Below, piece after piece: positions 29,415 through 49,833 of a DNA stretch of 64,000 nucleotides. A program made the translations under genes and the position numbers. This DNA comes from a virus (lineage: Duplodnaviria; Caudoviricetes): positions 32,001-96,000 of the IMG/VR virus record IMGVR_UViG_3300028626_000002; one strand, 5' to 3'. Numbering within the stretch: position 1 is the stretch's first letter; each line of letters opens with the position of its first letter. The notes beneath the pieces are model-generated. The model was not told where the DNA came from, made no database searches, and saw only the letters and a list, made by a program, of their open reading frames with translations.

Positions 29415-29903
29415 ATGGCCACACCAGAGGAACTTGCGTACTGCGCAGGGGTAATTGACTCGGATGGGTGCATCCGAGTGGGTCGCGGGGTCAAGCGTGA
29501 CAAGCGAGCGGGCAAACACAGCGCTTACGCTGACTACCACCCCGCTGTCCACGTCGGCCAGGTGGAACCACAAGCGGTTGACCTGCTGAAGCGGGTATTC
29601 GGAGGAAGCATCTACCTGCGCAAGCGCGACAAGAAGGCCCACCGCACCTTGATGGTGTGGCGAGTGAGGGACAACCTTGCGGCGGAATGCGCCAGGCAGT
29701 TGCTGCCCTACCTGCGCATCAAGAAGGCGCAGGCACTGAACTGTATTGCCCTGCAGGACTACCGCCACGAGTACGGCAGGCAGTCAAGGGCGGTGAAGGG
29801 GAGGGCCGGTACTACATTCCGCACAGCCGACGTGATACAGAGGCTCGAGGAGTTCTACGCGGAGTCGAGGAGGCTCAACGCAGGGAGCACGGAGGAACCA
29901 TAA
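29415..29903 (+). CDS. Free-standing LAGLIDADG homing endonuclease (single motif)
   Basis: LAYCAGVIDSDG; FGG; LLPYL.IKK.QA; atypical codons. Confidence 0.85.
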   Translation: MATPEELAYCAGVIDSDGCIRVGRGVKRDKRAGKHSAYADYHPAVHVGQVEPQAVDLLKRVFGGSIYLRKRDKKAHRTLMVWRVRDNLAAECARQLLPYLRIKKAQALNCIALQDYRHEYGRQSRAVKGRAGTTFRTADVIQRLEEFYAESRRLNAGSTEEP

Positions 29904-31678
29904 TGGCCAACAAGACGCTGTTCAAGTCCACGAGTAGCAAGCGTCCCCCCACGGACACGACCAACGAGGCCGGGGGCCGGGCATACAACAGGGACTCTCG
30001 CCTCGCGCTCGCGCAGCTCAGTGCAACCGGCTGCCTCGGCGGCACGTTCTACACGAGCCCCGAACAGGAGCTGGCGACCATCCTGGACCTCTGTGGCCAG
30101 AACTCCCCCGAGTTCGTGGCCAAGGCCGCCGTCTACGCCCGCAAGCGCGGGTTCATGAAGGACGCCCCCGCCCTGATGGTGGCGCACCTGGCGTCGCTGC
30201 AGACCGCGGAGGGCCGGAACGCCTTCACGCAGGCGTTCCCGCTCGTCATGGACAACGCGAAGATGGTCCGGAACTTCGTCCAGATCATCCGTTCCGGGCA
30301 GGCCGGCCGCAAGTCGTTCGGTTCCCGGCCCAAGAAGCTGATCCAGGCGTGGTTCAACAACATCCCGGACCACGCGCTGTTCAACTCCAGCATCGGGCAG
30401 GACCCGTCGCTGGGGGACATCATCAACCTGGTCCACCCGCTGCCCAAGACGGACTCCCGCCGGGCCTTGTACGGCTACCTGAAGGGCACCGAGGGCATCA
30501 CCCGGGAGGCGTTCGACCGGCTGCCGCAGGCCGAGCGGTTCAACCGGCATGGCGACCCGCGCTTCTACTTCTCCGACGACCTGCCGCCCCTGGTGCAGGC
30601 CTACGAGCAGCTGAAGCGCGGCGCGTGGGACGGCGAGCAGCTGCCGCGGGTCAACTTCCAGATGCTGACCTCGCTGAAGCTGTCGAAGGACCAGTGGGCC
30701 GAGGTGGCCATGACGATGTCGTGGTACGCCCTGCGGATGAACCTGAACACCCTGCTGCGGCATGGCGTGTTCGACATCCCGGGGATGACGCCGAAGATCG
30801 TCGCCCGGCTGACGGACCCGGAGGCCATCCGCAAGGCCAAGGCCTTCCCGTACCAGCTGCTGACCGCGTACCTCTACGCGGACGACAAGCTGCCGCGCGC
30901 GGTCAAGAACGCCCTGCAGGACGCCATGGAGGTGGCCTGCGAGAACGTCCCGCTCATCGGGAGCGGCCGCATCCTCATCTGCCCGGACGTGTCCGGGTCG
31001 ATGCGCGAGCCCATCACCGGCAAGCGGGACCAGGTGTCGAAGATCAACCGCATCCACGTGGCGGCGCTCATCGCCGCGGCGCTGATGCGGAAGAACCCGG
31101 ACGCGGACATCCTGCCGTTCGCCAACGACGTGCGCGGGGACATCCAGTTCAACCCCCGCGACAGCATCATGACGAACGCCCAGCGCGTCTACGACGCGGC
31201 CGCCGGCGGAACCCGCATGGCCGCGCCGCTGCTCCTGGCCAACCGGGAGCAGCGGAAGTACGAGGCGGTGGTCTTCGTCTCGGACAACGAGTCCTGGATG
31301 GACAGCGAGGGTCGGCACTACGGCCCCTGCGGGAAGCAGCTGTGGTCGAACCCCCTGTTCCAGCACCCGACCACCAAGGACTGGGGGGCGACGCAGACCC
31401 TGGAGGAGTGGAACACCTTCTCCCGGCGCAACCACGGCGCCAAGCTGGTGTGCGTCGACCTGACGCCGGACACCACCGTGCAGTGCATCGACCGGGCGGA
31501 CATCCTCAACGTCGGCGGCTTCTCCGACGCGGTGTTCGACGTCATCGACTCGTTCGCGAAGGGCGACCTGACCCCGGAGCACTGGGTGGGCGAGATCGAG
31601 CGCATCAACCTGCACCAGTTCGACCCGACCCCACACGAGGTGGGCCAGGTCGAGGAATCGGCCGAGCCGCTGGCCTAA
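29903..31678 (+). CDS. rsr: Ro60/Rsr TROVE-vWA RNA-binding protein (591 aa)
   Basis: NEAGG.AY, G.LGGTFY, ALRMNLNTL.RHG, FPYQL, MIDAS DVSGSM, SDNESW, VGGFSD.VF. Confidence 0.92.
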   Translation: MANKTLFKSTSSKRPPTDTTNEAGGRAYNRDSRLALAQLSATGCLGGTFYTSPEQELATILDLCGQNSPEFVAKAAVYARKRGFMKDAPALMVAHLASLQTAEGRNAFTQAFPLVMDNAKMVRNFVQIIRSGQAGRKSFGSRPKKLIQAWFNNIPDHALFNSSIGQDPSLGDIINLVHPLPKTDSRRALYGYLKGTEGITREAFDRLPQAERFNRHGDPRFYFSDDLPPLVQAYEQLKRGAWDGEQLPRVNFQMLTSLKLSKDQWAEVAMTMSWYALRMNLNTLLRHGVFDIPGMTPKIVARLTDPEAIRKAKAFPYQLLTAYLYADDKLPRAVKNALQDAMEVACENVPLIGSGRILICPDVSGSMREPITGKRDQVSKINRIHVAALIAAALMRKNPDADILPFANDVRGDIQFNPRDSIMTNAQRVYDAAAGGTRMAAPLLLANREQRKYEAVVFVSDNESWMDSEGRHYGPCGKQLWSNPLFQHPTTKDWGATQTLEEWNTFSRRNHGAKLVCVDLTPDTTVQCIDRADILNVGGFSDAVFDVIDSFAKGDLTPEHWVGEIERINLHQFDPTPHEVGQVEESAEPLA

Positions 31679-32940: not shown

Positions 32941-33307
32941 GGGGGTGACCCGGTTTCGACAGGGCGAAGCAGACATGCAGCAGCGCGCCGTGGTTGGTCA
33001 GCAGGCCACGTAAAAAGCCGACCAGAGCAAACTGCCAACTTCAACACCTTCACCGAGGACTCGCTCTTCGGTGGCAAGCTGAAGCCCCTGGCCGCGGTCG
33101 AGGGATTCGTCCCGACGACCAACGCCTCGCAGTTCGCCTACGCCTGACGGTTCATCCGCTGGCGGGTTGCTGGACCTGAAAACCAGCTGGGCACGCAGCC
33201 CCGAGTAGAGCTGCAGAGTGCCACGTCCTCACCATGACGTGGCTACGCACGTAGACGCTGTATCAAGCACGTTCTGGACTGGGGTTCGACTCCCCACACC
33301 TCCACCA
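32941..33307 (+). ncRNA. ssrA: tmRNA; tag ANFNTFTEDSLFGGKLKPLAAVEGFVPTTNASQFAYA* at 33034-33147
   Basis: 5' GGGGGTG pairs with 3' CACCTCC-A-CCA including G3:U70; GGTTTCGAC 5' motif; T arm GGGG-TTCGACT-CCCC; resume context AAACT|GCC. Confidence 0.93.
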
Positions 33308-33743: not shown

Positions 33744-33880
33744 ACCTGACCGAATGCCTGTTGGGGGTACTTCCACTGCTAATGGAGAGGTCGCAGGTTC
33801 AAGTCCTGCCGTCCGGCTCGCCGGGCGTAGCTCAGCTGGGAGAGCGCTTACGTTCCCTCGACGATATTCGTCGGTCAGGT
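33744..33880 (+). ncRNA. YrlA-like Y RNA unit 4 (permuted tRNA mimic with GCT anticodon arm)
   Basis: ACCTGACCGAATGC...TCGTCGGTCAGGT; TTCCA-CTGCTAA-TGGAG, T arm, loop-closed acceptor stem, then D arm. Confidence 0.85.
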
Positions 33881-34718: not shown

Positions 34719-34931
34719 ATGAACGTCCGCATCTTCCGCCTGGGTGGCTCCGGTGCCCGCCAGATCGAGCTGTCCGCCGGCGCCACCGTCGCCGACGCCG
34801 CGCAGGCCGCCGACCTGCCCACCTCCGGCCACACGATCTCCGTGAACGGCCTGGGCGCCGCCCTGAACACCGCCCTGTCGGACGGGGACACGGTCTCCCT
34901 GGTCCCGAAGGTCGAGGCCGGCTCCCTGTAG
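34719..34931 (+). CDS. Ubiquitin-like beta-grasp protein (ThiS/MoaD-like), ends EAG-SL
   Basis: 70 aa; RBS AGGAG; GATVAD, VNG, L.DGD.V.LVP.V.AG. Confidence 0.85.
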   Translation: MNVRIFRLGGSGARQIELSAGATVADAAQAADLPTSGHTISVNGLGAALNTALSDGDTVSLVPKVEAGSL

Positions 34932-34996
34932 CCGCCGCGCCGCGTCCGTCCCCCTGCCTAGCACAGGGCGGGGGGACGGACGTCAAGGAGACCTGC

Positions 34997-36613
34997 ATGG
35001 GCATGTTGCGTAACACCCTGATCAAGCACCCCGGTCTCAGGGCCCAGATGGAATTTCTGGCGGCTCAGCACGGCATCGACATCGAGTTCGTCACCCACGC
35101 GTCCCCCCAGGAAGTCAAGGTCGTTCGTCCGCCGAAGCACGTCGTCGTTCTGTCGTTCGGCAACGACAGCAGCACCCGCGGGTTTAGCGCACTGTACGAC
35201 AAGGAGCGGCTGACGTACGTCGGCCCCTGGAGCGGGTACGGCTCGTACTGCCCCGGGTGCACCTCCGGTATTCCCATCACCGTCCCGGCGGCCGCCGGCG
35301 GCACCAAGACCGTCGGTCTCCGGGTGGGCAACGTCATCTACCTGTACTTCTCCCTCGAGCAGCTGTTCGAGCATGGCACGTCGCTGGCGTGGCAGCCCGA
35401 GGACGCAGGCGGGTACGGCCTCGAGTACGTCGACGGCCTGGGGTACGGCCGGTGGGTGACTGGGGGCGATTCCGTCGCGCTGGTCCGCAAGCTCTTCAAC
35501 GACATCTTCGACAAGCACATGCCGGAAGCGGCGAAGGCCGTCCTGGAGTTCAACTGGGACATCGAGCGGGCGGACTTCGTCACCCGCCAGGCGAGGTTCT
35601 TCGCCACCGTGTTCGAGAAGTGGTCGTCGCGTCTCTCGCAGGTCGAGCAGGAGAAGTGGAACGCCGGCGAGCACCTGCGGACGCTCTGTCGAGAGGAAGC
35701 GCATCTGCGGGCATCCTGCGAGGGCTGGGAGGCCGCCGCGCCCGCCCGGAAGAAGCAGGCGGAGGACGCGTTCGACACGTACATCTCGTACGTCAAGAAC
35801 GGCGTCATCAGCGACGCCCAGTGGGCGGGGTCTACGTTCTCGTTCGTGGTCAACCCGCTGAACGTGGGCGGCGACCACGAGTACGCCACGGAGATGGGGC
35901 CGTGGAGGGTCTCGCTGGACTTCAACACGTGCGCCTGCAGCATCAGCAAGATGGACCACACCGTCCTGTCGTCGTCGGGCTTCTGGCACCCGCACATCAA
36001 CCTGAGCGGGCGCCTCTGCATGGGCAACGCCGACGCGCTGCTGCACGAGGCCGTGGGTCGCTCGGACCTGGTCGGGGCCATCGCCGTCATCCTCGAGTTC
36101 CTGCAGGGGTACAACGAGGACTCCCCGTACTGCCGTATCGAGCAGTGGAACCCCGACTACTCCGATGACGACGACCACGAGAGCTGCTACGAGAACTCGA
36201 GCCCCCATGACTGTGTGTGCTGCTACCGGGACTGCGGGTACCGCGATGACGCCGAGTCGCGGTGCTGGGACTACCACGAGGACACTCCCAAGGACTGCAT
36301 CCGCTGCCGCGACTGCGACTACGTCGACACCGCGGAAGAGAACTGTCACCGTGACCAGGTGAATTGCGGGTACGCCTGGAAGTGCGTGGGCGAGTGCGAG
36401 CTCAGCCGCTGCGCGTACTACCAGGACAGCGACAGCTGCTACGATTCCCACGAAGGCGCCGAATGCACGGACTGCTGCGTGGGCAGCGACTGCAGGCGCT
36501 ACGTGGACTCCGAGGCCGCCGAGGAGCCCGAAGAGGCCCCCGTGGAGCAGGCGGCGGAGCAGATGACACCCGTCGGCGAGGCCGTCCCCGAGACGGTGGA
36601 GGAGACCGCATGA
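34997..36613 (+). CDS. Prokaryotic E2-like protein with N-terminal domain, coiled coil and Cys-rich tail
   Basis: HPHI-x5-LC motif (His 35987, Cys 36017) followed by helix and YN..SPY; operon context. Confidence 0.7.
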   Translation: MGMLRNTLIKHPGLRAQMEFLAAQHGIDIEFVTHASPQEVKVVRPPKHVVVLSFGNDSSTRGFSALYDKERLTYVGPWSGYGSYCPGCTSGIPITVPAAAGGTKTVGLRVGNVIYLYFSLEQLFEHGTSLAWQPEDAGGYGLEYVDGLGYGRWVTGGDSVALVRKLFNDIFDKHMPEAAKAVLEFNWDIERADFVTRQARFFATVFEKWSSRLSQVEQEKWNAGEHLRTLCREEAHLRASCEGWEAAAPARKKQAEDAFDTYISYVKNGVISDAQWAGSTFSFVVNPLNVGGDHEYATEMGPWRVSLDFNTCACSISKMDHTVLSSSGFWHPHINLSGRLCMGNADALLHEAVGRSDLVGAIAVILEFLQGYNEDSPYCRIEQWNPDYSDDDDHESCYENSSPHDCVCCYRDCGYRDDAESRCWDYHEDTPKDCIRCRDCDYVDTAEENCHRDQVNCGYAWKCVGECELSRCAYYQDSDSCYDSHEGAECTDCCVGSDCRRYVDSEAAEEPEEAPVEQAAEQMTPVGEAVPETVEETA

Positions 36614-37719
36614 AGGCCGTCAGCAACGGCACTGTCCGGGTGAAGATCCTGGACCGCGAGTACCGCAAGCTCGACGCCTGGGCCCGCCTCGCCACCGGCG
36701 AGATTTCGGCCCTGGGCATGGTCGAGCTGGAGAGCGATGGTCCCCTGATCACCAGCCTCTTCATGCCCCGGCAGGTCTGCACGGGAGCCAGCAGCGACAT
36801 GAACCAGGAGGACGTGGGCGCCTACCTCTGCGAGCTGATGGCGCGCGGGGAGGAGGGCAAGCTCCGCGCCTGGGTCCACAGCCACGGTGACCTGGGGGTT
36901 TTCTGGTCCGGCACCGACCAGAACACCATCAAGGACCTGGGCAGCGATCCGTACCTGGTCTCCGTCGTCGTCAACCGTAAGGGCGAGTACAAGGCCCGCA
37001 TCGACATCAACAGCCCGTTCAAGGTCACGATGGAGGACCTGAGCCTCGTGGTGGTGTACCGGGCGGACAAGGACCTCGAGGACGAGTGCAGGGCGGAGCT
37101 GGCCGCGAAGGTCACCTCCCCGGCGCCCAGCAGCACGCTCGGACGCTTCTCCGACCGGTTCGCCGGCTTCCGGGACCCGCGCATGTCCTTCGGCCAGGGG
37201 TGGCCCCGGGACAAGGATGACGACCGCCCTTTCGCGGGAAGCGCGGCAAGCAGCGACGCGGGGGCCGCGGCCGCGCGGAGCGAGGCGACCCCGGACGTCC
37301 ATGACGAGGGGGAGGAGTCCTCCCTCGACTCGTACACGGCCCTGGAGCAGCGCTACGGGTACCTCTACGATCTCGAGGACCTCGTCGAGTTCGCACACCG
37401 CGCCGGAGGCGACCTGACCCTGTACACCGCGACGGGGTTCAAGGGCGAGGCCGTCACCTTCCGCACCGAGAGCGAGCTGGACAAGGCCCACGAGATCGGC
37501 ATGATGGACTCCCTGGCCTACGAGGTGTACTACCGGGCCCTCAACGAGTTCCGCGACCTGACCCTCCGGGGGCTGGAGGAGGCCATCGACGCGGCCTGGA
37601 CGCGGTACGACATCGACGACCCGAACAGCGGCAGGCGGCTGGAGGACGAGGACGAGGACGAGGACGAGGACCCGACGCCCCCCTCGGCGGAGGACCTGCA
37701 GGAGGCGTACACGGGATGA
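36610..37719 (+). CDS. JAB/MPN metallo-isopeptidase with acidic extension
   Basis: N-terminal Glu (GEISALG); HSH-x7-S-x2-D (WVHSHGDLGVFWSGTD). Confidence 0.85.
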   Translation: MKAVSNGTVRVKILDREYRKLDAWARLATGEISALGMVELESDGPLITSLFMPRQVCTGASSDMNQEDVGAYLCELMARGEEGKLRAWVHSHGDLGVFWSGTDQNTIKDLGSDPYLVSVVVNRKGEYKARIDINSPFKVTMEDLSLVVVYRADKDLEDECRAELAAKVTSPAPSSTLGRFSDRFAGFRDPRMSFGQGWPRDKDDDRPFAGSAASSDAGAAAARSEATPDVHDEGEESSLDSYTALEQRYGYLYDLEDLVEFAHRAGGDLTLYTATGFKGEAVTFRTESELDKAHEIGMMDSLAYEVYYRALNEFRDLTLRGLEEAIDAAWTRYDIDDPNSGRRLEDEDEDEDEDPTPPSAEDLQEAYTG

Positions 37720-38393
37720 GTGAGCAGGCGCAGCAGGTCATCACGCTCCCCAAGGAGGTCTACGTCCGCCAGAGCGGCATCCTGCCGTTCGAGGTCCTGA
37801 ACAAGTCCACCGTCACGGTCATCGGTGTCGGGGCCATCGGTTCCTTCACGGCCTTCAGCCTGGCCAAGATGGGCATCGGCACCATCCACGCCTACGATCA
37901 CGACACCGTGGAGCCCCACAACCTCCCGGCGCAGTGGTACCGGCTCAAGGACCTCGAGCAGAAGAAGCCCGACGCCCTGGCCAGCCTCCTGGCGGACTTC
38001 GGCGGCAACGTCGTGAGCCACCCGGAGAAGTTCGTGGGGCAGTCGGTCCGCGGCATCGTGGTCTGCGCCGTGGACTCGATGGACGCCCGCCTGGCCATCT
38101 GGCGGCACGTCAAGAAGTGCCCCAAGGTCGACCTGTTCATCGACGGGCGCATGGGCGCCGAGGTCGGCAAGGTCTACGCCATCCGCCCGAAGAACCCCGC
38201 GGAGGTGAAGCTGTACGAGGAGGACCTGTACCCGTCGTCCGAGGCCTTCCAGGCCCCGTGCACGGAGCGCAGCACGATCTACTGCGCCACGGGCCTCAGC
38301 GCATTCATGGTCTCCGCCATCGCCGGCTTCCTGTCGGAGCGGCAGTTCCGGCCGTACATGGTCGTGGACTTCCGCAACGGCGTGATGCTGTAG
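37716..38393 (+). CDS. ThiF/E1-like activating enzyme
   Basis: IGVGAIGS, D.DTVE.HNL..Q, AVDS..AR, DGRMG; candidate catalytic Cys in APCTE. Confidence 0.9.
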   Translation: MSEQAQQVITLPKEVYVRQSGILPFEVLNKSTVTVIGVGAIGSFTAFSLAKMGIGTIHAYDHDTVEPHNLPAQWYRLKDLEQKKPDALASLLADFGGNVVSHPEKFVGQSVRGIVVCAVDSMDARLAIWRHVKKCPKVDLFIDGRMGAEVGKVYAIRPKNPAEVKLYEEDLYPSSEAFQAPCTERSTIYCATGLSAFMVSAIAGFLSERQFRPYMVVDFRNGVML

Positions 38394-38568: not shown

Positions 38569-39492
38569 ATGAAGAAGACCCCGAAGACCGCCCCGACCTT
38601 GACCCCGTTCCAGCAGTTCGTGGTTGGCAGCGTCATCGCCCACCTGAGGGTGATGCTGTCCGATGCGTTCGCGTACATGATCCCCCTGGCCCCCGAGGAC
38701 AAGCGCGAGGGCATCGGCGCCGCCGGCGCCGGGTGCGTCGACCTCGTCGATGAAATCGCGGGGATCCTGGCCACCACCCCGACGCCGGAGGACGTCCTTC
38801 CGGCCCTGATCGCCAACAAGCGCAAGCTGATGGCGAAGGTCGCGGCCATCGCCAGCCAGTTCTCCGGCGAGCCGGTCAAGGTCGAGGAGCTGGAGGAGTT
38901 CTTCGCGGGACTGAGGGCCCTGCGGGAGGGCGGCGAGCTCGCCGGCGACGGCGCGCGCATCAAGGAGCTGGAGACCGAGCTGACCGCGCGCGACGCGCGC
39001 ATCACCAGCCTCGAGGCCGAGCTGGCCGCCGCGCGCGCCGCGGCCCCGGCCGCCCCCGCCGCCGTGACGCCCAGGGCCGCCATGGCGCGGCTGAAGAGCG
39101 TGACCGAGAGCCTGACAGGCGCGGTCGAAGAGCTCGTCATGCAGGGTGAGCTGAGCGACAAGAGCGCGGACCTGCAGGCCGAGGTCCGGGCCTTCGTCCG
39201 CGCCGCCGGCGTGGGCGAGATGGAGGTCGCGCCGGTCGTCCCGGCCGGGATGTCCCTGGAGGACCTCCCGCGCGTCATCGGCGACTTCGCCCACGCCAAG
39301 GGCGCGGACCCGCTGCTGAAGAAGGCGGCCGCGGCCGCCAAGGCCCTGTGCGCGTCGCTCGCGCGCGACGCGGCGGCGGCGGCGCGCGAAGCCGCGAGGG
39401 CGGCGAAGGAGGAGGCCGCGGCGCGCAAGGCCGGGCTCCCCGCGTGGAACGAGCTGCTGGGGTTCACGGCGCCGAAGGCCGCGGCCGCGTAG
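38569..39492 (+). CDS. Ala-rich coiled-coil hypothetical protein
   Basis: RBS AGAGGA; codon usage. Confidence 0.6.
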   Translation: MKKTPKTAPTLTPFQQFVVGSVIAHLRVMLSDAFAYMIPLAPEDKREGIGAAGAGCVDLVDEIAGILATTPTPEDVLPALIANKRKLMAKVAAIASQFSGEPVKVEELEEFFAGLRALREGGELAGDGARIKELETELTARDARITSLEAELAAARAAAPAAPAAVTPRAAMARLKSVTESLTGAVEELVMQGELSDKSADLQAEVRAFVRAAGVGEMEVAPVVPAGMSLEDLPRVIGDFAHAKGADPLLKKAAAAAKALCASLARDAAAAAREAARAAKEEAAARKAGLPAWNELLGFTAPKAAAA

Positions 39493-39568: not shown

Positions 39569-40024
39569 ATGGACAGGGCAATCATCAACCTGACCCCCCA
39601 CGACATCGTCGTGCGGGGACGCAGAGGCCCGCCCGCGGTCATCCCGCGGTCGGGTACCACCGCTCGGCTCACGCAGGCCGTGGCGGAGGTCGACACCCTC
39701 GTGTACGACGGGGCGAACATCCCCGTCGTGTCCCGCCTCCCGGGTCAGGTGGTCCTCTGGAGCGAGGCCACCCGGGAGAGCAGCGTTGGTTTGCCGGCGG
39801 TCGAGCCCGGCAAGGTCTGGCTCGTGTCGAGCATCGTGCGCGGCTACATGGAGCAGGCCGCGCTCGAAGCCGAGGTCGTGCGCCTGCGGGCGCTGGTGGT
39901 CCAGCTGGGAGGGAGCCCCGGCCCGGACGTGTCCCGACGTCGCGACGTTGTGTCCCCGGACTCCGGGGGCGCGGTGCGGAACCGCGACGGGGACGTGGTC
40001 TCCATCAGCAGGCTCATCCTGTAG
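39569..40024 (+). CDS. Hypothetical phage protein
   Basis: INLTPH.I, SG..AR motif; RBS AGGAGG. Confidence 0.6.
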   Translation: MDRAIINLTPHDIVVRGRRGPPAVIPRSGTTARLTQAVAEVDTLVYDGANIPVVSRLPGQVVLWSEATRESSVGLPAVEPGKVWLVSSIVRGYMEQAALEAEVVRLRALVVQLGGSPGPDVSRRRDVVSPDSGGAVRNRDGDVVSISRLIL

Positions 40025-40223: not shown

Positions 40224-40285
40224 TCAGGCTTGCGGAATGCTCACCAATATCGTACAGTACTCTCGGTAACCGTAGGAGGTTGCAG

Positions 40286-40885
40286 TTGGGCACTCCCAGC
40301 GCGTGTGACTTGGCGTGGGCCGCCGGCTTCTTCGACGGAGAAGGCTCGGTGTCCATTCCGCTGGTCCACCCAAAGACAAGGGGCAAGGCGTACCGTCAGA
40401 TGCAGCTGCAGGTAACCTGCACCAACACGTATCCGCAGGCCCTCAAGCGATTCCAGGAGTGGTTCGGCGGGCGGGTTACGACGGTTCACCGGGGCGCGAA
40501 GGATCACCCCCGTAAGCCCTGCTATAAATGGGCCATGGAGGCTAACGGGGCCGCCTCCTTCTTGAACGCCGTACGTCCATACCTCAAGGTAAAGCACGAG
40601 CAGGCGGACCTGGCGCTGCGATTTCAGTCCACCATGACATCCAGGAACACCGTTACGCTGGAACAGGTGGCCGAGCGGGCCGGGGTGCACGTTACCACTG
40701 CGTGCAACTATCTACGGGGGCTGCGCAAGGGTAACGCTGCAACCGTGCTGCGTCTTCAGCAGGCGGTGGCTGCCCTTGGGTGGACATCTGCGTCTGCTCA
40801 CCGGTCAGACGCTACCTGGGAAGAGCGTCTGCGCATCCGCTCCGAGATCACCAGGTTGAACCAGCAGTCGCACGCGTTGCTGTAG
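40286..40885 (+). CDS. LAGLIDADG homing endonuclease with LacI-type HTH
   Basis: LAWAAGFFDGEG; PYL.VK.EQA; VTLEQVAERAGVHVTTA. Confidence 0.8.
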   Translation: MGTPSACDLAWAAGFFDGEGSVSIPLVHPKTRGKAYRQMQLQVTCTNTYPQALKRFQEWFGGRVTTVHRGAKDHPRKPCYKWAMEANGAASFLNAVRPYLKVKHEQADLALRFQSTMTSRNTVTLEQVAERAGVHVTTACNYLRGLRKGNAATVLRLQQAVAALGWTSASAHRSDATWEERLRIRSEITRLNQQSHALL

Positions 40886-40943
40886 GTTGTTCTGCAACCT
40901 GCCGGAATGGTACCATCAAGCTCGGTAGGAGGTGCGTGGGCAA

Positions 40944-43900
40944 ATGGCGATCAGTTATGACGCAAAGGCGACGGTCGACTCCCTGATCAACACGGTTGCC
41001 AAGCGCATCGGGGTCATCTTCCCCATCGAAGGGCGGCAGCACACGCTCGAGGTGCAGGACGTGCAGGCCTCGGGCGACTGGGACATGAAGGACATCGACG
41101 GGTACATGCGTGCCAAGCTCCACGGACGCACGTGGGGCCTGCCTATCACCGGCACGCTCGTCGTGCGGGACAAGGCGACGGGCAAGGTGCTCGACCGCAA
41201 GCAGAACGCCCGCCTGATGACCCTGCCCGTGATGACCCGGCACTTCTCGTACATCGTGGACGGCAAGGAGTTCGACGCCACCCGTCAGTGGCGCCTGAAG
41301 GCCGGCGTGTACCACCGTGTGAAGGCGAACGGTCAGCTGGAGGCCCAGTGGAACCTCAGCGAGGGGCGCGGCTTCCACACCGCCTTCGACCCCGCTCGGC
41401 ACAAGTTCACGATGCAGTACGCGTCGTCCACCGTGTCGCTGTACCCGGTCCTGCGTGCTCTGGGCACGTCGGATGCCGAGATCAGCCGGGCATGGGGGCC
41501 GGACCTGCTCGAGGGCAATGTCGGGTCTCCCGCGACCAGCGCCAGGGACCTCACGAAGCTCTACAAGGCCATCACCGGCAAGCCCCCGGCGGACGAGAAG
41601 GAGATGCTGCTGACCATTCGCGACACGTTCGCGAAGACGGCCATGCGCCCCGACGTCAACAAGATCACCCTCGGCCGGCCCGACGACCGGGTCACCCCTG
41701 GTGGGCTGCTGCAGTCCTCCAAGCGCCTGTTGGACATGTCCCGGGGCAAGGGGGAGCCCGATGCCCGCGACAGCGTGGTGTTCAAGGAGCTGCTGGACAT
41801 CGACGACTTCGTCGACGACCGCCTCGTGGCGATGACCCGCAAGATCCAGGGCAAGGTGCGCAACCGACTGGACCACGAGAACAAGGTCGACGCCATCTAC
41901 TCCGCGGACTACATGAACCACCCCGTCAAGACGTTCTTCACGGGGATGTCGCTGGCGGAGCAGCCGCGGCAGGTGAACCCCGTCGACATGTTCAGCTCCA
42001 TGACGAAGACCACGGTCATGGGCGAGGGCGGCATCCAGTCTTCCCACGGTGTGCCCCTCGAGGCACGCATCCTCGACAACAGCCACGTGGGCGTGCTGGA
42101 CCCCATCCACAGCCCCGAGGGCGGGAAGGTGGGCATCAACCTGCATCTGGCCCTGGGCGCCGGCAAGCAGGGCAGGGAACCCACGCTCTACGTGCGCGAC
42201 CCGGCAACCGGCAAGATCGAGACCAAGACCGTGCAGGACCTGGAGCCCCTGACCCTGGCGTTCCCCGACCAGTTCATCCGCCGGCCGGACGGCAAGATGC
42301 AGCCGGTGGCGAAGATGGTCACCGCCCTGGGGCCGGGCAACGAGATCGTGCGGGTGCCGGCGTCGAAGGTGGACTTCGTCTTGCCGACGCCCAAGGCCAT
42401 GTTCAGCATCACCGGCAACCTCGTCCCGTTCCTCCAGAACACCTCCGGCCCGCGCGTGTCCTACGCGATGCACCACATGGAGCAGGCCCTGGCACTGAAG
42501 TACCGGGAGCAGCCCCTCATCGCGGTGGCCTCCGGCGGTGAGCGCGCCCCCACCTTCGAGGACCTCGTCGGCAGGTACTTCACCTCCCGGGCTCCCGTGG
42601 ACGGCCGCGTCGTGCGCGTCGCCAAGGACCACATCAGCATCCGGGGGACCGACGGCAAGCTCTACAAGGAGCCGCTGTACGTCGACTACCCGCTGAACGA
42701 GAAGTCGGCGTTCATCAACAGCGAGCCGGTGGTCAAGGCGGGCGACAAGGTCGAGAAGGGACAGGTCGTCGCGGACACGAACCACACCCGGGACGGGCAG
42801 CTGGCCCTGGGCGTGAACCTCAAGACCGCGTACATGCCCTACCTCTCGAACACCTACGACGACGCCATCGTCATCTCGGAGTCGGCGTCGCAGAAGCTCA
42901 CGTCGCAGCACCTGTACAAGGAGCGCCTGGACGTCGACGAGGACATCACCGTCGACAAGGCCAAGTACCGGGCCATGTACCGCGACCGTCTGGACGACCG
43001 GCAGGCGAAGCAGCTGGACAACGAGGGTGTGGTACAGGAGGGCACCGTCGTACAGCCCGGGGACGTGCTGGTGACGGCTCTGCGGAAGCGCAGCCCCACC
43101 GAGGAAGAGCTGCTGGTCCGCGGCATCGCGAAGAGTCTGGCCCGGCCCTTCGCCGACGTGGCCGTGCGGTGGGAGAGCCAGTACCCGGGCGTGGTCAAGC
43201 GTGTGGTGAAGAACGGGGACAACATCCAGGTTCACGTGGCCAGTGAGGAGCCGGCCGGCGTGGGCGACAAGCTCTGCTTCGACCCCGAGACCGAGTACCT
43301 GGTGGAAGGCAAGGGCTGGGTGAAGAGCCCGCTGCTCACGCCGGACGACCGAGTGCTCACGTACAAGGCCCCCGAGAACCCCAGCCACCGCCGGTCCACC
43401 GCGGATGGGTGGCTCGAGTGGCAGTACCCGACACGGGTCGTGGAGTTCGACCACGACGGCCAGATGTACCGCGTGCTGACGGCCGAGATCGACCAGTTCG
43501 TGACGCCGAACCACAACCTCTACGTGAAGGTGCTGACGCGTGACCATCAGACCCTCCGGCAGAACCGCTTCCGGCTGGTGCAGGCCAGGAAGGTGCTGGG
43601 CAAGCCCGTCGTGCACGCGCAGTACGGCGCCAACGAGAATGTCCATGAGCCGGCCTCCCTGGAGTTCGGCAAGCGGACGGTGCCCACGCGGTCGTACCTG
43701 AAGCTGCTGGCCCACCTGTTCCGTCACGGCATCCGCCGGGACCAGCTGGTGTTCTTCCCCGGCAACGGCTACTCGGCGTCCTGCCGGCAGGCCATGGACG
43801 AGTGCGGCATCACGTACTCCATCCGCACCGTGGACAGCCGCGGCGGGCTGCTGACGAGCGACCCGCTGGTCTGCGACGTGGACTTCGAGAACAGCCTCCC

Positions 43901-45518
43901 GGCGTTCCTGGACACCCTGCCCACCCGGACCCTCAGCGCGTTCCTCCACGACCTGTTCCGCGGCACCCCGATGCTGTCCACCCAGCGCCACGGGGCCGGG
44001 TGCACCCGCATCGTGAACCGCAGCATGATCGACAGGCTGCAGGAACTGGGCGTCCGCGCCCGGGTGGTGTTCTGCGTGTCCCCCGGCCCGGGGGACAAGT
44101 ACACGGCGTCCATCACCGTTCTCGGCAGTCGCGCGGCGGTGGGGAGCCCCGTCAACTTCGAACGGCGCGGGAAGAACGATGGCCTGGTGCAGTACACCGG
44201 CAAGGTCTACTGCTGCACGGTCCCGAACGGCATCCTGGTGACCCGCCGGAACTTCAAGGTGGTGCTCTCGGGCAACAGCGGCCGGCATGGCAACAAGGGC
44301 GTCATCTCGACGGTCCTGCCTGACGACCAGATGCCGCGCACCAAGGACGGGCCGGTCGACATCATCCTGAACCCCCTCGGCATCCCGAGCCGCATCAACG
44401 TGGGCACGGTCCTCGAGACCAGCCTGTCGAAGGTGGCGAAGAAGGAGGGGCGGCAGATCGCCGTGTCGAACTTCGAGCCCGACCCCTCGAAGCGCATCGT
44501 CCGCAAGACCATTCATGTGGCCCCTCACTCCCGTACCATCCAGACGAAGGAGGGCCCCAAGACCGTCCAGGTGGAGGGATACTCCTATGAGCGCGACTAC
44601 ACGGAAGCGGTCGAGGCGGAACTCGCGAAGGCGGAAATCTCCGAGAAGGAAGAGGTCACGGATCCGGTGTCCGGGAAGAGCGTGGGCAACGTCCTGGTGG
44701 GTTACCAGTACACCATCAAGCATGTCCACCAGGCTGAGAAGAAGCTCGCCGCCCGCTCTGGGGGCCCCGGGTACGACTACGACGCCAACATGGCTCCCAA
44801 GTCGTCCGGCCATGCCAGTGGCCAGTCGATGGGCGAGCTGGGCCTCTACAGCCTGCTGAGCCACGGCGCCCTCAGCCTCATCCGCGAGGGCACCACGTAC
44901 AAGTCCGATGCCTCCCAGAGCGAGGTGTGGACCGCGCTCCAGACCGGTGAGCCCCTGCCCCCGCCGAAGCCCAGCTTCGCCTACGGGAAGTTCCTGTCCC
45001 TGCTGTCGGCCATGGGCGTGGCCGTGGATCGCACGGGCAGTCAGCTGAGCCTGCGGCCGACCACCGACGAGGATGTCCTGAAGCGGTCGAATGGCGAGCT
45101 GAAGGAGTCCACGCTGACCCTCCGCGCCAAGGACCTGAAGCCGGAGGAGGGCGGGCTCTTCGACGAGCGCATCACCGGCGGCATCCGGGGGGACCGCTGG
45201 TGCTTCGCGCACGACACGCTGGTGCTGACCGAGTGGGGTCCCATGCGCATCGGGACTCTCGTCGAGCACCGCATCCAGGTTCGAGTGTGGTCCTACGACT
45301 TCCAGGCGAAGGAGTTCGTGCTGCGACCCATCACCGAGTGGCACCGGAACGAGACCGACCCGTCTGTCGAGCCGGTGGGCACGCTGGTCTACCACACGCC
45401 GTACGGTGTCCTGGAGGCCCTGCACGGCACCTTCAAGCACGAGCTGATGACCGAGGATGGCGGGCGGCGGCCCATGGGTGAATCCGAGGCGCTCCTCTAC
45501 GTGGACCAGGACGCATGA
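40944..45518 (+). CDS. rpoB: Phage RNA polymerase beta subunit fused to beta' N-terminus; cis intein and C-terminal split-intein N-half
   Basis: SPEG.KVGI, LALGVNL, DDAIVIS, GDKL|SGRHGNKG, ILNPLGIPSRINVG, GQSMGELG, then beta'-type KPEEGGLFDERITG. Confidence 0.9.
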   Translation: MAISYDAKATVDSLINTVAKRIGVIFPIEGRQHTLEVQDVQASGDWDMKDIDGYMRAKLHGRTWGLPITGTLVVRDKATGKVLDRKQNARLMTLPVMTRHFSYIVDGKEFDATRQWRLKAGVYHRVKANGQLEAQWNLSEGRGFHTAFDPARHKFTMQYASSTVSLYPVLRALGTSDAEISRAWGPDLLEGNVGSPATSARDLTKLYKAITGKPPADEKEMLLTIRDTFAKTAMRPDVNKITLGRPDDRVTPGGLLQSSKRLLDMSRGKGEPDARDSVVFKELLDIDDFVDDRLVAMTRKIQGKVRNRLDHENKVDAIYSADYMNHPVKTFFTGMSLAEQPRQVNPVDMFSSMTKTTVMGEGGIQSSHGVPLEARILDNSHVGVLDPIHSPEGGKVGINLHLALGAGKQGREPTLYVRDPATGKIETKTVQDLEPLTLAFPDQFIRRPDGKMQPVAKMVTALGPGNEIVRVPASKVDFVLPTPKAMFSITGNLVPFLQNTSGPRVSYAMHHMEQALALKYREQPLIAVASGGERAPTFEDLVGRYFTSRAPVDGRVVRVAKDHISIRGTDGKLYKEPLYVDYPLNEKSAFINSEPVVKAGDKVEKGQVVADTNHTRDGQLALGVNLKTAYMPYLSNTYDDAIVISESASQKLTSQHLYKERLDVDEDITVDKAKYRAMYRDRLDDRQAKQLDNEGVVQEGTVVQPGDVLVTALRKRSPTEEELLVRGIAKSLARPFADVAVRWESQYPGVVKRVVKNGDNIQVHVASEEPAGVGDKLCFDPETEYLVEGKGWVKSPLLTPDDRVLTYKAPENPSHRRSTADGWLEWQYPTRVVEFDHDGQMYRVLTAEIDQFVTPNHNLYVKVLTRDHQTLRQNRFRLVQARKVLGKPVVHAQYGANENVHEPASLEFGKRTVPTRSYLKLLAHLFRHGIRRDQLVFFPGNGYSASCRQAMDECGITYSIRTVDSRGGLLTSDPLVCDVDFENSLPAFLDTLPTRTLSAFLHDLFRGTPMLSTQRHGAGCTRIVNRSMIDRLQELGVRARVVFCVSPGPGDKYTASITVLGSRAAVGSPVNFERRGKNDGLVQYTGKVYCCTVPNGILVTRRNFKVVLSGNSGRHGNKGVISTVLPDDQMPRTKDGPVDIILNPLGIPSRINVGTVLETSLSKVAKKEGRQIAVSNFEPDPSKRIVRKTIHVAPHSRTIQTKEGPKTVQVEGYSYERDYTEAVEAELAKAEISEKEEVTDPVSGKSVGNVLVGYQYTIKHVHQAEKKLAARSGGPGYDYDANMAPKSSGHASGQSMGELGLYSLLSHGALSLIREGTTYKSDASQSEVWTALQTGEPLPPPKPSFAYGKFLSLLSAMGVAVDRTGSQLSLRPTTDEDVLKRSNGELKESTLTLRAKDLKPEEGGLFDERITGGIRGDRWCFAHDTLVLTEWGPMRIGTLVEHRIQVRVWSYDFQAKEFVLRPITEWHRNETDPSVEPVGTLVYHTPYGVLEALHGTFKHELMTEDGGRRPMGESEALLYVDQDA
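43275..44276 (+). mobile_element. Cis intein (334 aa) in RNAP beta
   Basis: Starts CFD; block B VTPNH; block F VYCCTV; ends SGN before Ser; removal restores GDKLSGRHGNKG. Confidence 0.9.
45201..45515 (+). mobile_element. Split intein N-fragment (105 aa)
   Basis: CFAHDTLVLT..G...I..LV, block B GTFKH, then stop with no terminal Asn. Confidence 0.85.
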
Positions 45519-46147: not shown

Positions 46148-46689
46148 GGGGTGCTGACTCCATCCAGTACCTGCGAGGCCTGGGCGTCTTCCCCGGCCGT
46201 GGACGCCGGACCATCATCAGTCGCCTCTACAAGCACCACATCGGGGGCTACGACAGCGGGAAGTGGATCCAGAAGCAGGCAGCCTGTGACCCTCGCCTCA
46301 AGCTCCTCGGTTGCGTGGCCGGCATCAGGGTCTTCCAGGTGGACGGCGAGGCGGTGCGCCTGCACTACCTCGCCGACTTCGTCCAGGGAGGCAACCACGA
46401 GGTCTACCCGTGGGTCCCGGAGAACGAGGTCTGGGTCGAGGACAACCTCTCCCGCCCCAAGGCCCTACTCATCGCCCTGCACGAGCTCGTCGAGCGGGCA
46501 TGGATGAAGCGCGGCCGCAAGTACCCAGTGGCCCACGTGTACGCCTTGTCGGTGGAGCGCTACTGCAGGCAGCACCCCGCCGCCATTCACACCCTGCTCA
46601 CCGCGGCGGCCCACGGCGTCCTCTTGGCCATGCCCGAGGAGCGCAAGGTCATCGAGCGGCAGAACGCTCGCGCGCGCAGCGAGGGCTGA
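46144..46689 (+). CDS. Hypothetical protein (HExxE motif)
   Basis: LHELVE...AH; ATGA coupling. Confidence 0.5.
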   Translation: MRGADSIQYLRGLGVFPGRGRRTIISRLYKHHIGGYDSGKWIQKQAACDPRLKLLGCVAGIRVFQVDGEAVRLHYLADFVQGGNHEVYPWVPENEVWVEDNLSRPKALLIALHELVERAWMKRGRKYPVAHVYALSVERYCRQHPAAIHTLLTAAAHGVLLAMPEERKVIERQNARARSEG

Positions 46690-46721
46690 CGCCCGGCAAG
46701 AACGTGATTTCTCAGGTATAA

Positions 46722-47363
46722 GTGCCTTGCACCCCGAACCATAGGAGGTCTACGTTGGGAGCCCCTCGTCGTCCGCCGGAAGTGAAGGCAGAGGAGGCCA
46801 CGCCGCACCAGAAGTACTGGCTGGCCAACGGCATGGAGGTCCGGCCGTTCCGGTGGGACCCCAGCACCGAGAGCGTCATGTGCAGCCGGGAGATCAGCCC
46901 GGGGCACCGCAAGCGCGACTACCCCGTCAAGTTCGGCACTACTCTCTTTACCACCCCGCCGCTGAAGGTCGAGAAGCCGGCGGCGGGGGAGGAGCAGTTC
47001 GACACGTCCGCAGCCAGGACCGTCCGCCTGGATTGCACCAAGCCCAACCTCAGCGGTCCGCTCAGCCCGGAGTTCCGGGAAGAACTCCAGGTGCCGACGG
47101 CAGGCGCAGCGCTCCCGCCGGTCCAGGCCAACGCGGCGCCTGACGACGCCATGGGTCGCATGATGGCGCTCCACGCTCTTCGAGAGGCCATGACGGCGGC
47201 TCTGAGCGAGAACACCAGCCGGAAGTGGCAGTACTTCCTCATCGCCTGCCGCCTCAACCCGCAGCTGCGGGCCACGAAGTCCATCCTGGTTCAGGCCGAA
47301 CTGGACGCCCGGGCGGTGGACGCCCAGTCGACGGAAATCATGAACGCTGCCAAGAAGCTCTAG
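46722..47363 (+). CDS. Hypothetical protein (start uncertain)
   Basis: ORF downstream of GGTATAAG motif. Confidence 0.45.
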   Translation: MPCTPNHRRSTLGAPRRPPEVKAEEATPHQKYWLANGMEVRPFRWDPSTESVMCSREISPGHRKRDYPVKFGTTLFTTPPLKVEKPAAGEEQFDTSAARTVRLDCTKPNLSGPLSPEFREELQVPTAGAALPPVQANAAPDDAMGRMMALHALREAMTAALSENTSRKWQYFLIACRLNPQLRATKSILVQAELDARAVDAQSTEIMNAAKKL

Positions 47364-49786: not shown

Positions 49787-49833
49787 CCCTCGACTCTGCT
49801 ACAATTTAACCCAGGACCTTGAGGCAAGCCTGC

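What the first reader, a model, noticed from the sequence alone, without database searches (positions are those of the whole stretch)
34719..38393. Phage-encoded ubiquitin-like conjugation operon (Ubl, E2, JAB, E1)
Seen: four co-oriented genes, the last three coupled by ATGA overlaps. They encode a 70-aa beta-grasp protein ending VEAG-SL, an HPHI-x5-LC E2-like protein, a JAB peptidase with a full metal motif, and a ThiF/E1. No thiamine or molybdopterin genes lie nearby. Known: E1-E2-JAB-Ubl operons occur in bacteria, and some (Bil; CBASS Cap2/Cap3) act in antiphage defence. Inference: JAB removes SL to expose Gly, and the phage conjugates its own Ubl to host or rival-phage proteins, or counters host Ubl defences.
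Basis: partly seen in the sequence, partly recalled or inferred. Interest (0 to 1): 0.8.

Follow-up and report, generated by a model that had tools for sequence, protein, structure and literature searches.

The report
Phage-borne ubiquitin-like tagging cassette
A large uncultured phage carries a complete four-gene kit for attaching a small ubiquitin-like protein to other proteins; the kit belongs to an unnamed family that is widespread in phages and some bacteria, and what it tags is unknown.

Summary
Four co-oriented, high-GC3 genes sit at the stated coordinates, and the last three are joined by ATGA overlaps.

- Ubl: 70 aa, ThiS family, ends VEAG-SL.
- E2-like protein: 538 aa.
- JAB: JAMM/JAB peptidase with the full E...HxHx7Sx2D motif.
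- E1: minimal 225-aa ThiF-type enzyme with an invariant loop Cys182.

The decisive test was the fold of the 34997 protein. No family library recognises it. A confident AlphaFold model and an unbiased fold search both give a UBC/E2 core at residues 248-388. A profile of that core hits only eukaryotic E2 enzymes in the PDB (E down to 1.8e-4). In those alignments HPH331-333 lies on the HPN motif and Cys341 on the catalytic Cys.

The cassette recurs in all 30 motif-matched IMG/VR viral stretches and in 67 stretches of bacterial and archaeal assemblies, mostly MAGs. It is absent from GenBank phages by tblastn. I found no paper that describes it.

The most likely reading is a working Ubl conjugation cascade (JAB trims, E1 activates, E2 transfers) with an unknown target. 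A sulfur-carrier role is unlikely. The adjacent Ro60/Y-RNA/tmRNA module is not linked to this cassette family in general. This scan has found such phage cassettes before on other DNA.

The parts
34719..34931 (+). Ubl gene: 70-aa ThiS-family beta-grasp precursor. Predicted mature end is Gly68; Ser69-Leu70 would be trimmed.
   Evidence: ThiS 26.9 bits, above the 22.5 cut-off. C-terminal LVPKVE(A/G)G followed by 1-3 residues in 5 orthologues. xG followed by 0-4 residues in 23 cassettes.
34942..34983 (+). 18-bp GC-rich hairpin between the Ubl stop and the E2 ribosome-binding site, with no U tract. Probably an intra-operon attenuator or RNA stabiliser that raises Ubl relative to the enzymes (inferred).
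   Evidence: -46.6 kcal/mol, z -4.85, 0 of 200 shuffles fold as well. Equivalent stems of different sequence sit at the same place in L001 and L002.
34997..36613 (+). E2-like protein, 538 aa. N-terminal alpha/beta domain (residues 1-155), long helical hairpin (159-267), UBC core (248-388), Cys-rich domain (397-499), acidic tail.
   Evidence: AlphaFold model with mean pLDDT 89.6. No hit in Pfam, NCBIfam, PHROGs or PADLOC.
35738..36160 (+). UBC/E2 catalytic core (residues 248-388). HPH331-333 lies at 35987-35995 and the predicted catalytic Cys341 at 36017-36019.
   Evidence: Foldseek: all top 9 and nearly all of the rows listed are E2s. VIA Z 6.3-7.4 over 113-122 residues, rmsd about 4 A. Unbiased search with the isolated domain: every row belongs to UBC/RWD-containing entries, Z up to 6.0. 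Profile against PDB: only E2s, E 1.8e-4, with HPH on HPN and Cys on the catalytic Cys. HPH is invariant and C341 at least 90% conserved in 104 representatives.
36185..36493 (+). Four C-x8-12-C-x2-3-C-x2-5-C repeats with 16 invariant Cys. Probably a metal-binding accessory domain; a built-in E3 or adaptor role is possible (inferred).
   Evidence: 16 Cys invariant in 12 sequences. Modelled at pLDDT about 88-97. Present in only about a fifth to two fifths of 39 family members.
36610..37719 (+). JAMM/JAB metallopeptidase (core residues about 1-170) with a lineage-specific C-terminal extension and acidic tail. The motif H90..D103 lies at 36877-36918.
   Evidence: Prok-JAB 19.2 bits. Best PDB sequence matches are CSN5 and RPN11, aligning E31 and HSHx7SGxD (E about 0.1). 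E31, H90, H92, S100 and D103 are kept in 29-30 of 30 cassette JABs.
37716..38393 (+). Minimal E1: a single ThiF-type adenylation domain of 225 aa. GxGxxG lies at 37824-37841 and the invariant Cys182 at 38259-38261.
   Evidence: ThiF 65.2 bits. G37, G39, D61, N69, K84, D120, R125 and C182 are invariant in 22 sequences. C182 is kept in 25 of 25. No UFD or separate Cys domain, judged from length.

Best explanation
This is a self-contained ubiquitin-like protein-conjugation cascade carried by a large phage.

Proposed steps, all inferred from homology and conserved residues; none was shown biochemically:
1. The 70-aa ThiS-type Ubl is made as a precursor. It is probably made in excess over the enzymes, because a strong hairpin separates its gene from the rest of the operon.
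2. The JAMM peptidase removes Ser69-Leu70 to expose Gly68. It can probably also reverse conjugation.
3. The minimal, probably dimeric, ThiF-type E1 adenylates Gly68. It may hold the Ubl on its invariant loop Cys182.
4. The Ubl passes to Cys341 of the UBC-fold E2.
5. The E2 transfers it to an amino group of a target. The E2's own N-terminal domain, long helical hairpin and Cys4-repeat domain most likely supply target choice, because the operon has no separate E3.

The target is unknown. My rough split is:
- host proteins during takeover or counter-defence, about 0.4;
- proteins of competing phages or elements (a carried defence), about 0.25;
- the phage's own proteins, about 0.2;
- other, about 0.15.
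For: - All four catalytic signatures are present and conserved across the family: Ubl terminal Gly, JAMM E/HxH/S/D, E1 nucleotide and Mg residues plus Cys182, and E2 HPH and Cys341.
- The E2 core is homologous to bona fide E2 enzymes by profile search. All 60 listed PDB hits are E2s, best E 1.8e-4, and the motif and Cys are in register. Fold searches agree.
- The gene set is kept together over very large distances: E2 identity falls to under 20% and GC ranges from 30 to 70%. It is seen in metagenome contigs, 30 viral contigs and 67 stretches of prokaryote assemblies. This argues that the four act together.
- No sulfur-transfer partner is present in the record.
- The precursor-tail logic matches the biochemically shown BilC/BilA case (PMC10557695).
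- Against the nearest Myxococcales cassette, E2 is 29% identical while E1 is 59%, JAB 53% and Ubl 53%. That fits an E2 that carries specificity.
Against: - There is no biochemical or expression evidence.
- The E2 has no hit above threshold in any curated family library, and JAB is below Pfam's cut-off.
- Structural scores are middling: Z at most 7.4, TM about 0.4, Foldseek E at best 2.5e-3.
- The E1 has no ubiquitin-fold domain or separate Cys domain, so how it hands the Ubl to the E2 is unclear.
- No E3 and no target are identified.
- The conservation counts for the E2 motif in the IMG/VR and genome sets are circular, because those loci were found with the motif. The independent count is the 104-representative alignment.
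Confidence: 0.72

Rival explanations
1. The cassette is a carried defence system, like Bil. The phage, or a prophage or mobile element in bacteria, tags proteins of competing phages to exclude them. It would then be a defence cassette and not part of the phage's own infection programme.
For: The only characterised stand-alone bacterial Ubl-E2-JAB-E1 operons, Bil, are anti-phage systems (10.1101/2023.09.04.556158 and PMC10557695). The same cassette sits in bacterial chromosomes, with three copies in one Myxococcota chromosome and one copy beside Mu-transposase and IstB genes. The E2 evolves much faster than the E1.
Against: No PADLOC defence model matches the Ubl, E2 or JAB. Here the cassette sits among replication and transcription genes of a large virus record, and in relatives it lies beside DNA polymerase, Rad52 or primase. 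It is common in viral records of 130-230 kb rated 83-100% complete.
Confidence: 0.25
2. It is a sulfur-carrier system. ThiF adenylates ThiS, and ThiS becomes a thiocarboxylate that donates sulfur for a thio-modification of tRNA, DNA or a cofactor, with no protein conjugation.
For: The Ubl and E1 score as ThiS and ThiF in Pfam, and the best NCBIfam E1 hits are ThiF and MoeB models, all far below their cut-offs. JAB next to ThiS/MoaD also occurs in sulfur-assimilation operons (PMC1779556).
Against: An E2 with conserved HPH and Cys is always present in the cassette. The record has no rhodanese, PP-loop (TtuA/TilS-type), ThiG or MoaE. The E1 has no rhodanese fusion and no CxxC zinc site; its only Cys are 117, 135, 182 and 190.
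Confidence: 0.05
3. The cassette works with the neighbouring Ro60, Y-RNA array and tmRNA as one RNA and translation quality-control module. For example, it would tag tmRNA-tagged products, stalled ribosomes or Ro60 particles.
For: The genes are adjacent and co-oriented: Ro60 at 29657-31678, tmRNA at 32941-33307, then the Ubl operon. The close relative L002 keeps the gene upstream of the RNA tract. Earlier notes of this scan report Ro60-linked Ubl/E1/JAB sets in other phages and in myxobacteria (unchecked leads, and one was later found to fall in part).
Against: For this E2-bearing family the link is not general. There was no TROVE match in 5 viral records. One of 5 others has a Ro60 homologue, but 40 kb from the cassette. 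No Ro60 homologue lies in the flanks of about 100 loci.
Confidence: 0.08
4. The E2-like protein is not a transfer enzyme. It would be a scaffold or a different Cys-dependent enzyme, and E1 plus JAB would act on the Ubl without an E2 step, as in the archaeal SAMP and Thermus TtuB systems.
For: E2-less Ubl conjugation exists (SAMP/UbaA and TtuB/TtuC; established knowledge, not tested here). The UBC-like fold also occurs in non-catalytic RWD and UEV domains, which appear among the fold hits.
Against: Non-catalytic UBC-like domains lack the HPN...Cys pair. Here HPH is invariant and the Cys is at least 90% conserved in 104 representatives, in register with catalytic E2s.
Confidence: 0.07

Closest known systems
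Bil (BilABCD, types I and II; operon class 6d/6c of Iyer et al. 2006): bacterial anti-phage Ubl conjugation
   Same: Same four roles (Ubl, E2, JAB, E1) in one operon. The Ubl is made with a short tail after a conserved Gly, which the JAB removes (PMC10557695). There is no separate E3.
   Different: - No PADLOC model matches the Ubl, E2 or JAB here.
- This E1 is a 225-aa single adenylation domain. BilD has inactive and active adenylation domains plus a helical Cys insertion.
- This E2 keeps a classical HPN-type motif (HPH) seven residues before the Cys. Class 6d E2s lack that His and have one after the Cys (PMC1779556).
- This E2 carries large extra domains.
- This copy is encoded by a virus.
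Eukaryotic UBC-family E2 enzymes (UbcH7/UBE2L3, Rad6/UBE2A, Ubc13/UBE2N, UBE2D, UBE2W)
   Same: Same core fold, and a profile-level sequence match across the beta-sheet, the HPN loop, the catalytic Cys and the following helices. The H-to-C spacing is identical. UBE2W also reads HPH, from my memory of its sequence; this is consistent with the UBE2W rows.
   Different: - Pfam UQ_con does not reach any threshold, and only 1 of 104 relatives gives even a weak hit.
- TM is only about 0.4.
- The core is embedded in a 538-aa protein with an N-terminal domain, a roughly 100-residue helical hairpin and four Cys4 repeats.
- The partner E1 is a minimal ThiF-type enzyme.
crAss-like phage block gp78-gp77-gp76 (Bacteroides phage crAss001), annotated hypothetical / metalloprotease / ThiF
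   Same: Same order: unknown protein, JAB, then short E1 core, inside a phage replication module. The JAB is homologous (E 3e-10). The E1 is 31% identical over 88% of its length. gp78 carries GYMHSHVSS...PCTG where this family has GYxHPHV...PCLGN.
   Different: The gp78 match is not significant (hhalign probability 3.8%), and tblastn of this E2 finds nothing in 50,697 phage records. The crAss E1 has an extra N-terminal domain of about 150 aa. I did not identify a Ubl there.
CBASS type II Cap2/Cap3 and Bub operons
   Same: They use E1, E2 and peptidase chemistry in bacteria. Cap2 and a CdnG-associated E2 appear among the weaker fold matches (Z 4.5-4.8). The E1 region matches PADLOC 'E1-E2' models.
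   Different: Cap2 is an E1-E2 fusion that conjugates a CD-NTase, not a free Ubl. Bub works through oxyesters, has an E1 without a catalytic Cys and uses a serine protease (PMC11601596). Here both Cys residues are conserved and the peptidase is a JAMM.
ThiS-ThiF / MoaD-MoeB sulfur-carrier pairs
   Same: The Ubl and E1 belong to the same superfamilies and pass Pfam's cut-offs.
   Different: This cassette has an E2 and a JAB and no sulfur-acceptor enzymes. All NCBIfam ThiF and MoeB equivalog scores are far below their cut-offs.

Membership tests
UBC/E2 ubiquitin-conjugating enzyme superfamily | UBC fold: an N-terminal helix, an antiparallel beta-meander, then helices after the active-site loop | tested here: met
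   Models at pLDDT 89.6 and 91.1. In the unbiased VIA search of 48,161 chains with the isolated domain, every row belongs to UBC/RWD-containing entries, Z up to 6.0 over 118-126 residues, rmsd 4.8-5.9 A. Second-look Z is 6.3-7.4. The Z values are middling, but the hits are homogeneous.
UBC/E2 ubiquitin-conjugating enzyme superfamily | HPN motif followed by the catalytic Cys at fixed spacing | tested here: met
   HPH331-333 and Cys341. The profile alignment places them on HPN and the Cys of UBE2L3 and of an E2 1 / Rad6-type enzyme (E 1.8e-4 to 1e-3). The third residue is His, not Asn.
UBC/E2 ubiquitin-conjugating enzyme superfamily | Scores above the curated Pfam UQ_con threshold | tested here: not met
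   No UQ_con hit for P0002. Only 1 of 104 relatives hits, at E 0.0024. I therefore file it as a divergent UBC-fold E2, not as a UQ_con member.
UBC/E2 ubiquitin-conjugating enzyme superfamily | Forms a Ubl thioester on the Cys | not testable with these tools
   This needs biochemistry.
Bil (BilABCD) anti-phage system | Operon with Ubl, E2, JAB and E1 | tested here: met
Bil (BilABCD) anti-phage system | Proteins match the Bil family models | tested here: not met
   PADLOC gives no hit for the Ubl, E2 or JAB at E up to 0.1. The E1 hits only generic E1-E2 models.
Bil (BilABCD) anti-phage system | E1 with inactive and active adenylation domains and a helical insertion carrying the catalytic Cys | tested here: not met
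   This E1 is 225 aa with one adenylation domain, compared with the BilD description in PMC10557695.
Bil (BilABCD) anti-phage system | Protects bacteria against phage | not testable with these tools
   This copy lies in a virus record.
JAMM/MPN+ (JAB) metallopeptidases | Catalytic E ... HxH-x7-S-x2-D motif | tested here: met
   E31, H90, H92, S100 and D103, kept in 29-30 of 30 cassette JABs. The alignment to CSN5 and RPN11 is in register.
JAMM/MPN+ (JAB) metallopeptidases | Scores above Pfam Prok-JAB gathering score | tested here: not met
   19.2 bits against a cut-off of 25.
ThiF/MoeB/E1 adenylyltransferases | ThiF domain with the GxGxxG nucleotide loop and conserved Asp and Arg | tested here: met
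   PF00899 at 65.2 bits, above the 28.1 cut-off. G37, G39, D61, D120 and R125 are invariant.
ThiS-ThiF sulfur-carrier pathway | Sulfur donor or acceptor enzymes (rhodanese, ThiG, MoaE, PP-loop thiolase) in the same genome or operon | tested here: not met
   No match in the 125-kb record, while controls ring in 11-14 of 14 genomes. The record is 68% complete, so absence from the whole phage is not proven.
CBASS type II (Cap2/Cap3) | E1-E2 fusion protein next to a CD-NTase | tested here: not met
   E1 and E2 are separate genes. PADLOC gave no CBASS hit other than E1-E2 models on the E1.

The most novel reading that the evidence does not exclude
The cassette is wired to the Ro60, Y-RNA array and tmRNA module that lies directly upstream. 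The phage would then run its own RNA and translation quality-control pathway, in which stalled or tmRNA-tagged products, ribosomes or Ro60 particles are marked with a ubiquitin-like protein. That would be a prokaryotic-virus analogue of eukaryotic ribosome-associated quality control.
Probability: 0.08. Interest if true: 0.9.

Novelty: new variant of a known kind. Interest (0 to 1): 0.62.

Why it matters
Ubiquitin-like conjugation in bacteria has so far been characterised as anti-phage defence (Bil and CBASS type II) or as uncharacterised bacterial operons such as Bub. This cassette puts a complete cascade on the virus side.

- Its E2 is closer in motif to eukaryotic E2 enzymes (HP[N/H]-x7-C) than the E2s of Bil-type operons are described to be.
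- Its E1 is about as small as an E1 can be.
- The family is common: 721 representatives at 50% identity at E up to 0.001 (111 up to 1e-10), in large phages, Myxococcota, CPR bacteria and some archaea. No curated library names it.

If the cascade is active, it gives three things. It would be a compact, tractable E1-E2-DUB system for mechanistic work. It would be a likely new class of phage takeover, counter-defence or inter-phage weapon. It would also be a further data point on where E2 enzymes with the HPN motif come from.

Tried and rejected
- **Complex prediction.** E1 x2 + mature Ubl + E2 core, with E2 as the partner: score 0.28 against a mark of 0.32, so no verdict. I do not use it for or against binding.
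- **Sequencing runs.** I did not try another route.
- **GenBank phages.** blastn of the operon and tblastn of the E2 against 50,697 records found no match.
- **IMG/VR scan with an alignment.** The first alignment was too diverse. The second produced a pattern with no true hit. A DNA pattern for the E2 motif then worked.
- **Full-length profile against PDB.** The result was swamped by coiled-coil noise, with E2s only at E about 0.2. The domain-only profile solved this.
- **Wide VIA search with the full-length model.** The long helix filled the list, and UbcH7 at rank 35 was the only globular row aligned to the core domain. I therefore folded the core alone.
- **N-terminal domain (residues 1-160).** The ESM Atlas gave no usable feature hit, and its structure rows have TM 0.34-0.38 to unrelated families. 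I make no claim about its fold.
- **Other unassigned parts.** The Cys-rich domain and the JAB C-terminal extension were not folded alone, so their folds are untested.
- **Ro60 linkage.** It was tested and is not general for this family.
- **Literature.** Seven full-text searches and five papers read in part found no description of this cassette. Subscription journals are not covered, so a description may exist.

Full report
**Setting**

The window is part of a 125,326-base virus record, linear, with CheckV completeness 68%. The E2 protein was also seen on a contig of 184,783 bases. GC is 66%. The genome encodes:
- a DnaB-type helicase, a family A DNA polymerase and a UvsX-like recombinase;
- Ro60/TROVE, RecD2, and both large RNA-polymerase subunits;
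- a baseplate-wedge-like protein;
- a tmRNA.

Its DNA polymerase is at most 36% identical to any GenBank phage. It is a large, uncultured, high-GC phage with no sequenced close relative in that collection.

**The observation**

GC3 of 0.85-0.98 marks all four frames as coding.

Family searches gave the following:
- ThiS for the 70-aa protein, above Pfam's cut-off.
- ThiF for the 225-aa protein, well above the cut-off.
- A sub-threshold Prok-JAB hit for the 369-aa protein. Its E31 / H90-x-H92-x7-S100-x2-D103 motif is nevertheless complete, and its best PDB sequence matches are CSN5 and RPN11, in register.
- Nothing for the 538-aa protein in Pfam, NCBIfam, PHROGs or PADLOC.

**Is the 34997 protein an E2?**

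A sensitive profile search found 721 representatives at 50% identity at E up to 0.001, 111 of them at E up to 1e-10. In an alignment of 104 of them, H331, P332 and H333 are invariant, and G338, C341 and G343 are at least 90% conserved.

An AlphaFold model built on that alignment is confident, with mean pLDDT 89.6. It shows four parts:
- an N-terminal alpha/beta domain (residues 1-155);
- a long helical hairpin (159-267);
- a helix, beta-meander and helices unit (248-388);
- a helical Cys-rich region (about 390-505).

Foldseek against the PDB returned E2 enzymes in all top 9 and nearly all of the rows listed (E from 2.5e-3). The second-look aligner gave Z 6.3-7.4 over 113-122 residues, covering essentially the whole UBC core.

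Because the long helix dominated a wide search, I folded residues 245-395 alone (pLDDT 91.1, pTM 0.85). I then searched 48,161 representative chains without Foldseek. Every row belongs to UBC/RWD-containing entries, with Z up to 6.0. These Z values are middling, so I looked for sequence-level proof.

A profile of the isolated core hit only E2 enzymes among 177,635 PDB sequences. The best E was 1.8e-4, and about a dozen distinct E2s scored below 1e-3. The printed alignments put HPH on HPN and Cys341 on the catalytic Cys, and they extend through the sheet and the following helices.

I conclude that the core is a divergent but genuine UBC-fold E2. The spacing from His to Cys is the same as in UBE2D. 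The HPH variant is the one I recall from UBE2W; that is from memory, and it is consistent with the UBE2W rows.

**The other three components across the family**

- The JAMM residues are kept in 29-30 of 30 JABs.
- The E1 nucleotide-binding and catalytic residues are invariant, and the loop Cys182 is kept in 25 of 25.
- The Ubl ends in a conserved Gly followed by 0-4 variable residues in 23 cassettes. It ends LVPKVE(A/G)G plus 1-3 residues in the five closest.

That precursor layout is what the BilC peptidase has been shown to trim in Type II Bil operons (PMC10557695).

An 18-bp hairpin (-46.6 kcal/mol, z -4.85) sits between the Ubl stop and the E2 ribosome-binding site. Stems of different sequence occupy the same place in the two close relatives. 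I read it as an attenuator or RNA stabiliser that sets Ubl above the enzymes. That is an inference.

**How widespread the cassette is**

- Two contigs with 56-57% identical E2 keep the four genes in order.
- Relatives with 23-29% identical E2 do so too, next to DNA polymerase A, Rad52 or an integrase.
- A degenerate DNA pattern for the E2 motif matched 30 stretches in IMG/VR. All 30 are true family members by HMM, and nearly all have JAB and E1 directly downstream. GC ranges from 30 to 63%, and the contigs are 12-232 kb.
- The same pattern matched 73 stretches in one-genome-per-species prokaryote assemblies. Of these, 67 are true. They are mostly MAGs labelled Myxococcota (including chromosomes of 2.7-6.0 Mb, one with three copies), CPR/Patescibacteria, Gammaproteobacteria and Planctomycetota, plus single Promethearchaeota and Thermoplasmatota MAGs.
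- The nearest cellular cassette is in a Myxococcales MAG. Its E1 is 59% identical, JAB 53%, Ubl 53%, but E2 only 29%. One myxobacterial copy lies beside Mu-transposase and IstB genes.
- tblastn of the E2 finds nothing in 50,697 GenBank phage records.
- The E1 has roughly 30% identical relatives in crAss-like, Flavobacterium and Xanthomonas phages.
- crAss001 has the same layout of unknown protein, JAB and ThiF. Its JAB is homologous (E 3e-10), and the unknown protein carries a motif-like HSHV...PC stretch that is not statistically significant.
- BFVD fold matches are uncharacterised proteins of uncultured phages, one crAss-like, followed by giant-virus E2s.

**What it is not**

- The record has no rhodanese, PP-loop thiolase, ThiG or MoaE. 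Together with the obligatory E2, this makes a sulfur-carrier role unlikely.
- The cassette is not a Bil, CBASS or Bub member by model match or by E1 architecture.
- The neighbouring Ro60, Y-RNA and tmRNA module is tempting, and earlier notes of this scan report Ro60-linked Ubl/E1/JAB sets elsewhere. For this E2-bearing family, however, five large viral records have no TROVE gene. One of five others has a Ro60 homologue, 40 kb from its cassette. None of about 100 loci has one in its flanks. I therefore treat the adjacency here as lineage-specific and keep a functional link only as the low-probability novel case.

**Mechanism and its limits**

The best-supported reading is a complete cascade: JAB matures and probably recycles the Ubl, the minimal E1 adenylates Gly68, Cys341 of the E2 carries it, and the E2's own extra domains choose the target.

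- Shown: gene presence, conserved catalytic residues, E2 homology, and co-inheritance of the four genes.
- Inferred: every chemical step, the role of E1 Cys182, and the role of the Cys4 repeats. These repeats have 16 invariant Cys in the close clade but are present in only about a fifth to two fifths of the wider family.
- Unknown: the target.

The faster evolution of the E2, the position among early or replication-type genes in phages, and the presence on mobile elements and chromosomes in bacteria all fit a conflict system. They do not tell offence from defence.

**Novelty**

In seven full-text searches and five papers read in part, I found no paper describing this cassette. The library lacks most subscription journals.

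This scan has reported phage Ubl-E2-JAB-E1 cassettes on other DNA several times, so the kind is not new to the scan. What this window adds:
- a statistically supported, motif-in-register link of the E2 to eukaryotic E2 enzymes;
- the family's spread in IMG/VR and in prokaryote assemblies;
- a negative test of the Ro60 link.

I rate it a new variant of a known kind.

Noticed in passing
window 32941-33307: A full-length tmRNA (Rfam RF00023, 108.7 bits, E 1.8e-42) lies inside the non-coding tract between the Ro60 gene and the Ubl operon.
   Followed up: no
window 33750-33817: ARAGORN calls a single tRNA-Ser(GCT) in the same tract. Earlier notes of the scan read this tract as an array of Y RNAs with tRNA-like heads, so the call may be one of those heads and not a working tRNA.
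   Followed up: no
window 40280-40885 and 40932-45518: A LAGLIDADG/HNH-type homing endonuclease gene (PHROG 5046, Pfam LAGLIDADG_1) sits just upstream of a 1528-aa RNA polymerase beta-type gene. Its Rpb2 domain-6 match is split into two stretches, which suggests an insertion. The beta-prime-type gene is at 49819-52944.
   Followed up: no
window 36610-37719 (C-terminus) and L002:2755-3801: The JAB protein ends in an acidic run followed by ...YTG, with a terminal Gly that is conserved in the close relative. The E2 also ends in a conserved acidic ...EETA tail. I do not know whether these tails are docking sites or are themselves substrates.
   Followed up: no
L021, L023, L028, L029, L042, L056, L079, L087; L082: Several viral and MAG loci carry two tandem E2 paralogues in front of a single JAB-E1 pair. 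L082 carries two complete cassettes in tandem. This suggests that E2s are swapped or multiplied as specificity modules.
   Followed up: partly
L049, L064, L101 (OZ223209.1, Myxococcota chromosome of 5.98 Mb): One bacterial chromosome holds three separate copies of the Ubl-E2-JAB set.
   Followed up: no
L007 (Bacteroides phage crAss001, gp78-gp75): crAss001 gp77 is annotated as a metalloprotease and gp76 as a thiamine biosynthesis protein. They are a JAB and an E1 related to this cassette, and they sit in the replication module next to primase and UDG. The 'thiamine biosynthesis' label is probably wrong.
   Followed up: partly
L034 / G007 (IMG/VR contig of 180,106 bases): 46434-47057 and 87231-88808: A complete-looking viral genome carries both this cassette and a Ro60 homologue that is 42-46% identical to the window's, but 40 kb apart.
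   Followed up: yes
window 38569-39492 and 39569-40024: The two genes directly after the E1 encode a 307-aa Ala-rich protein and a 151-aa protein. They have no Pfam family and only one faint PHROG hit. They are not conserved next to the cassette elsewhere.
   Followed up: partly
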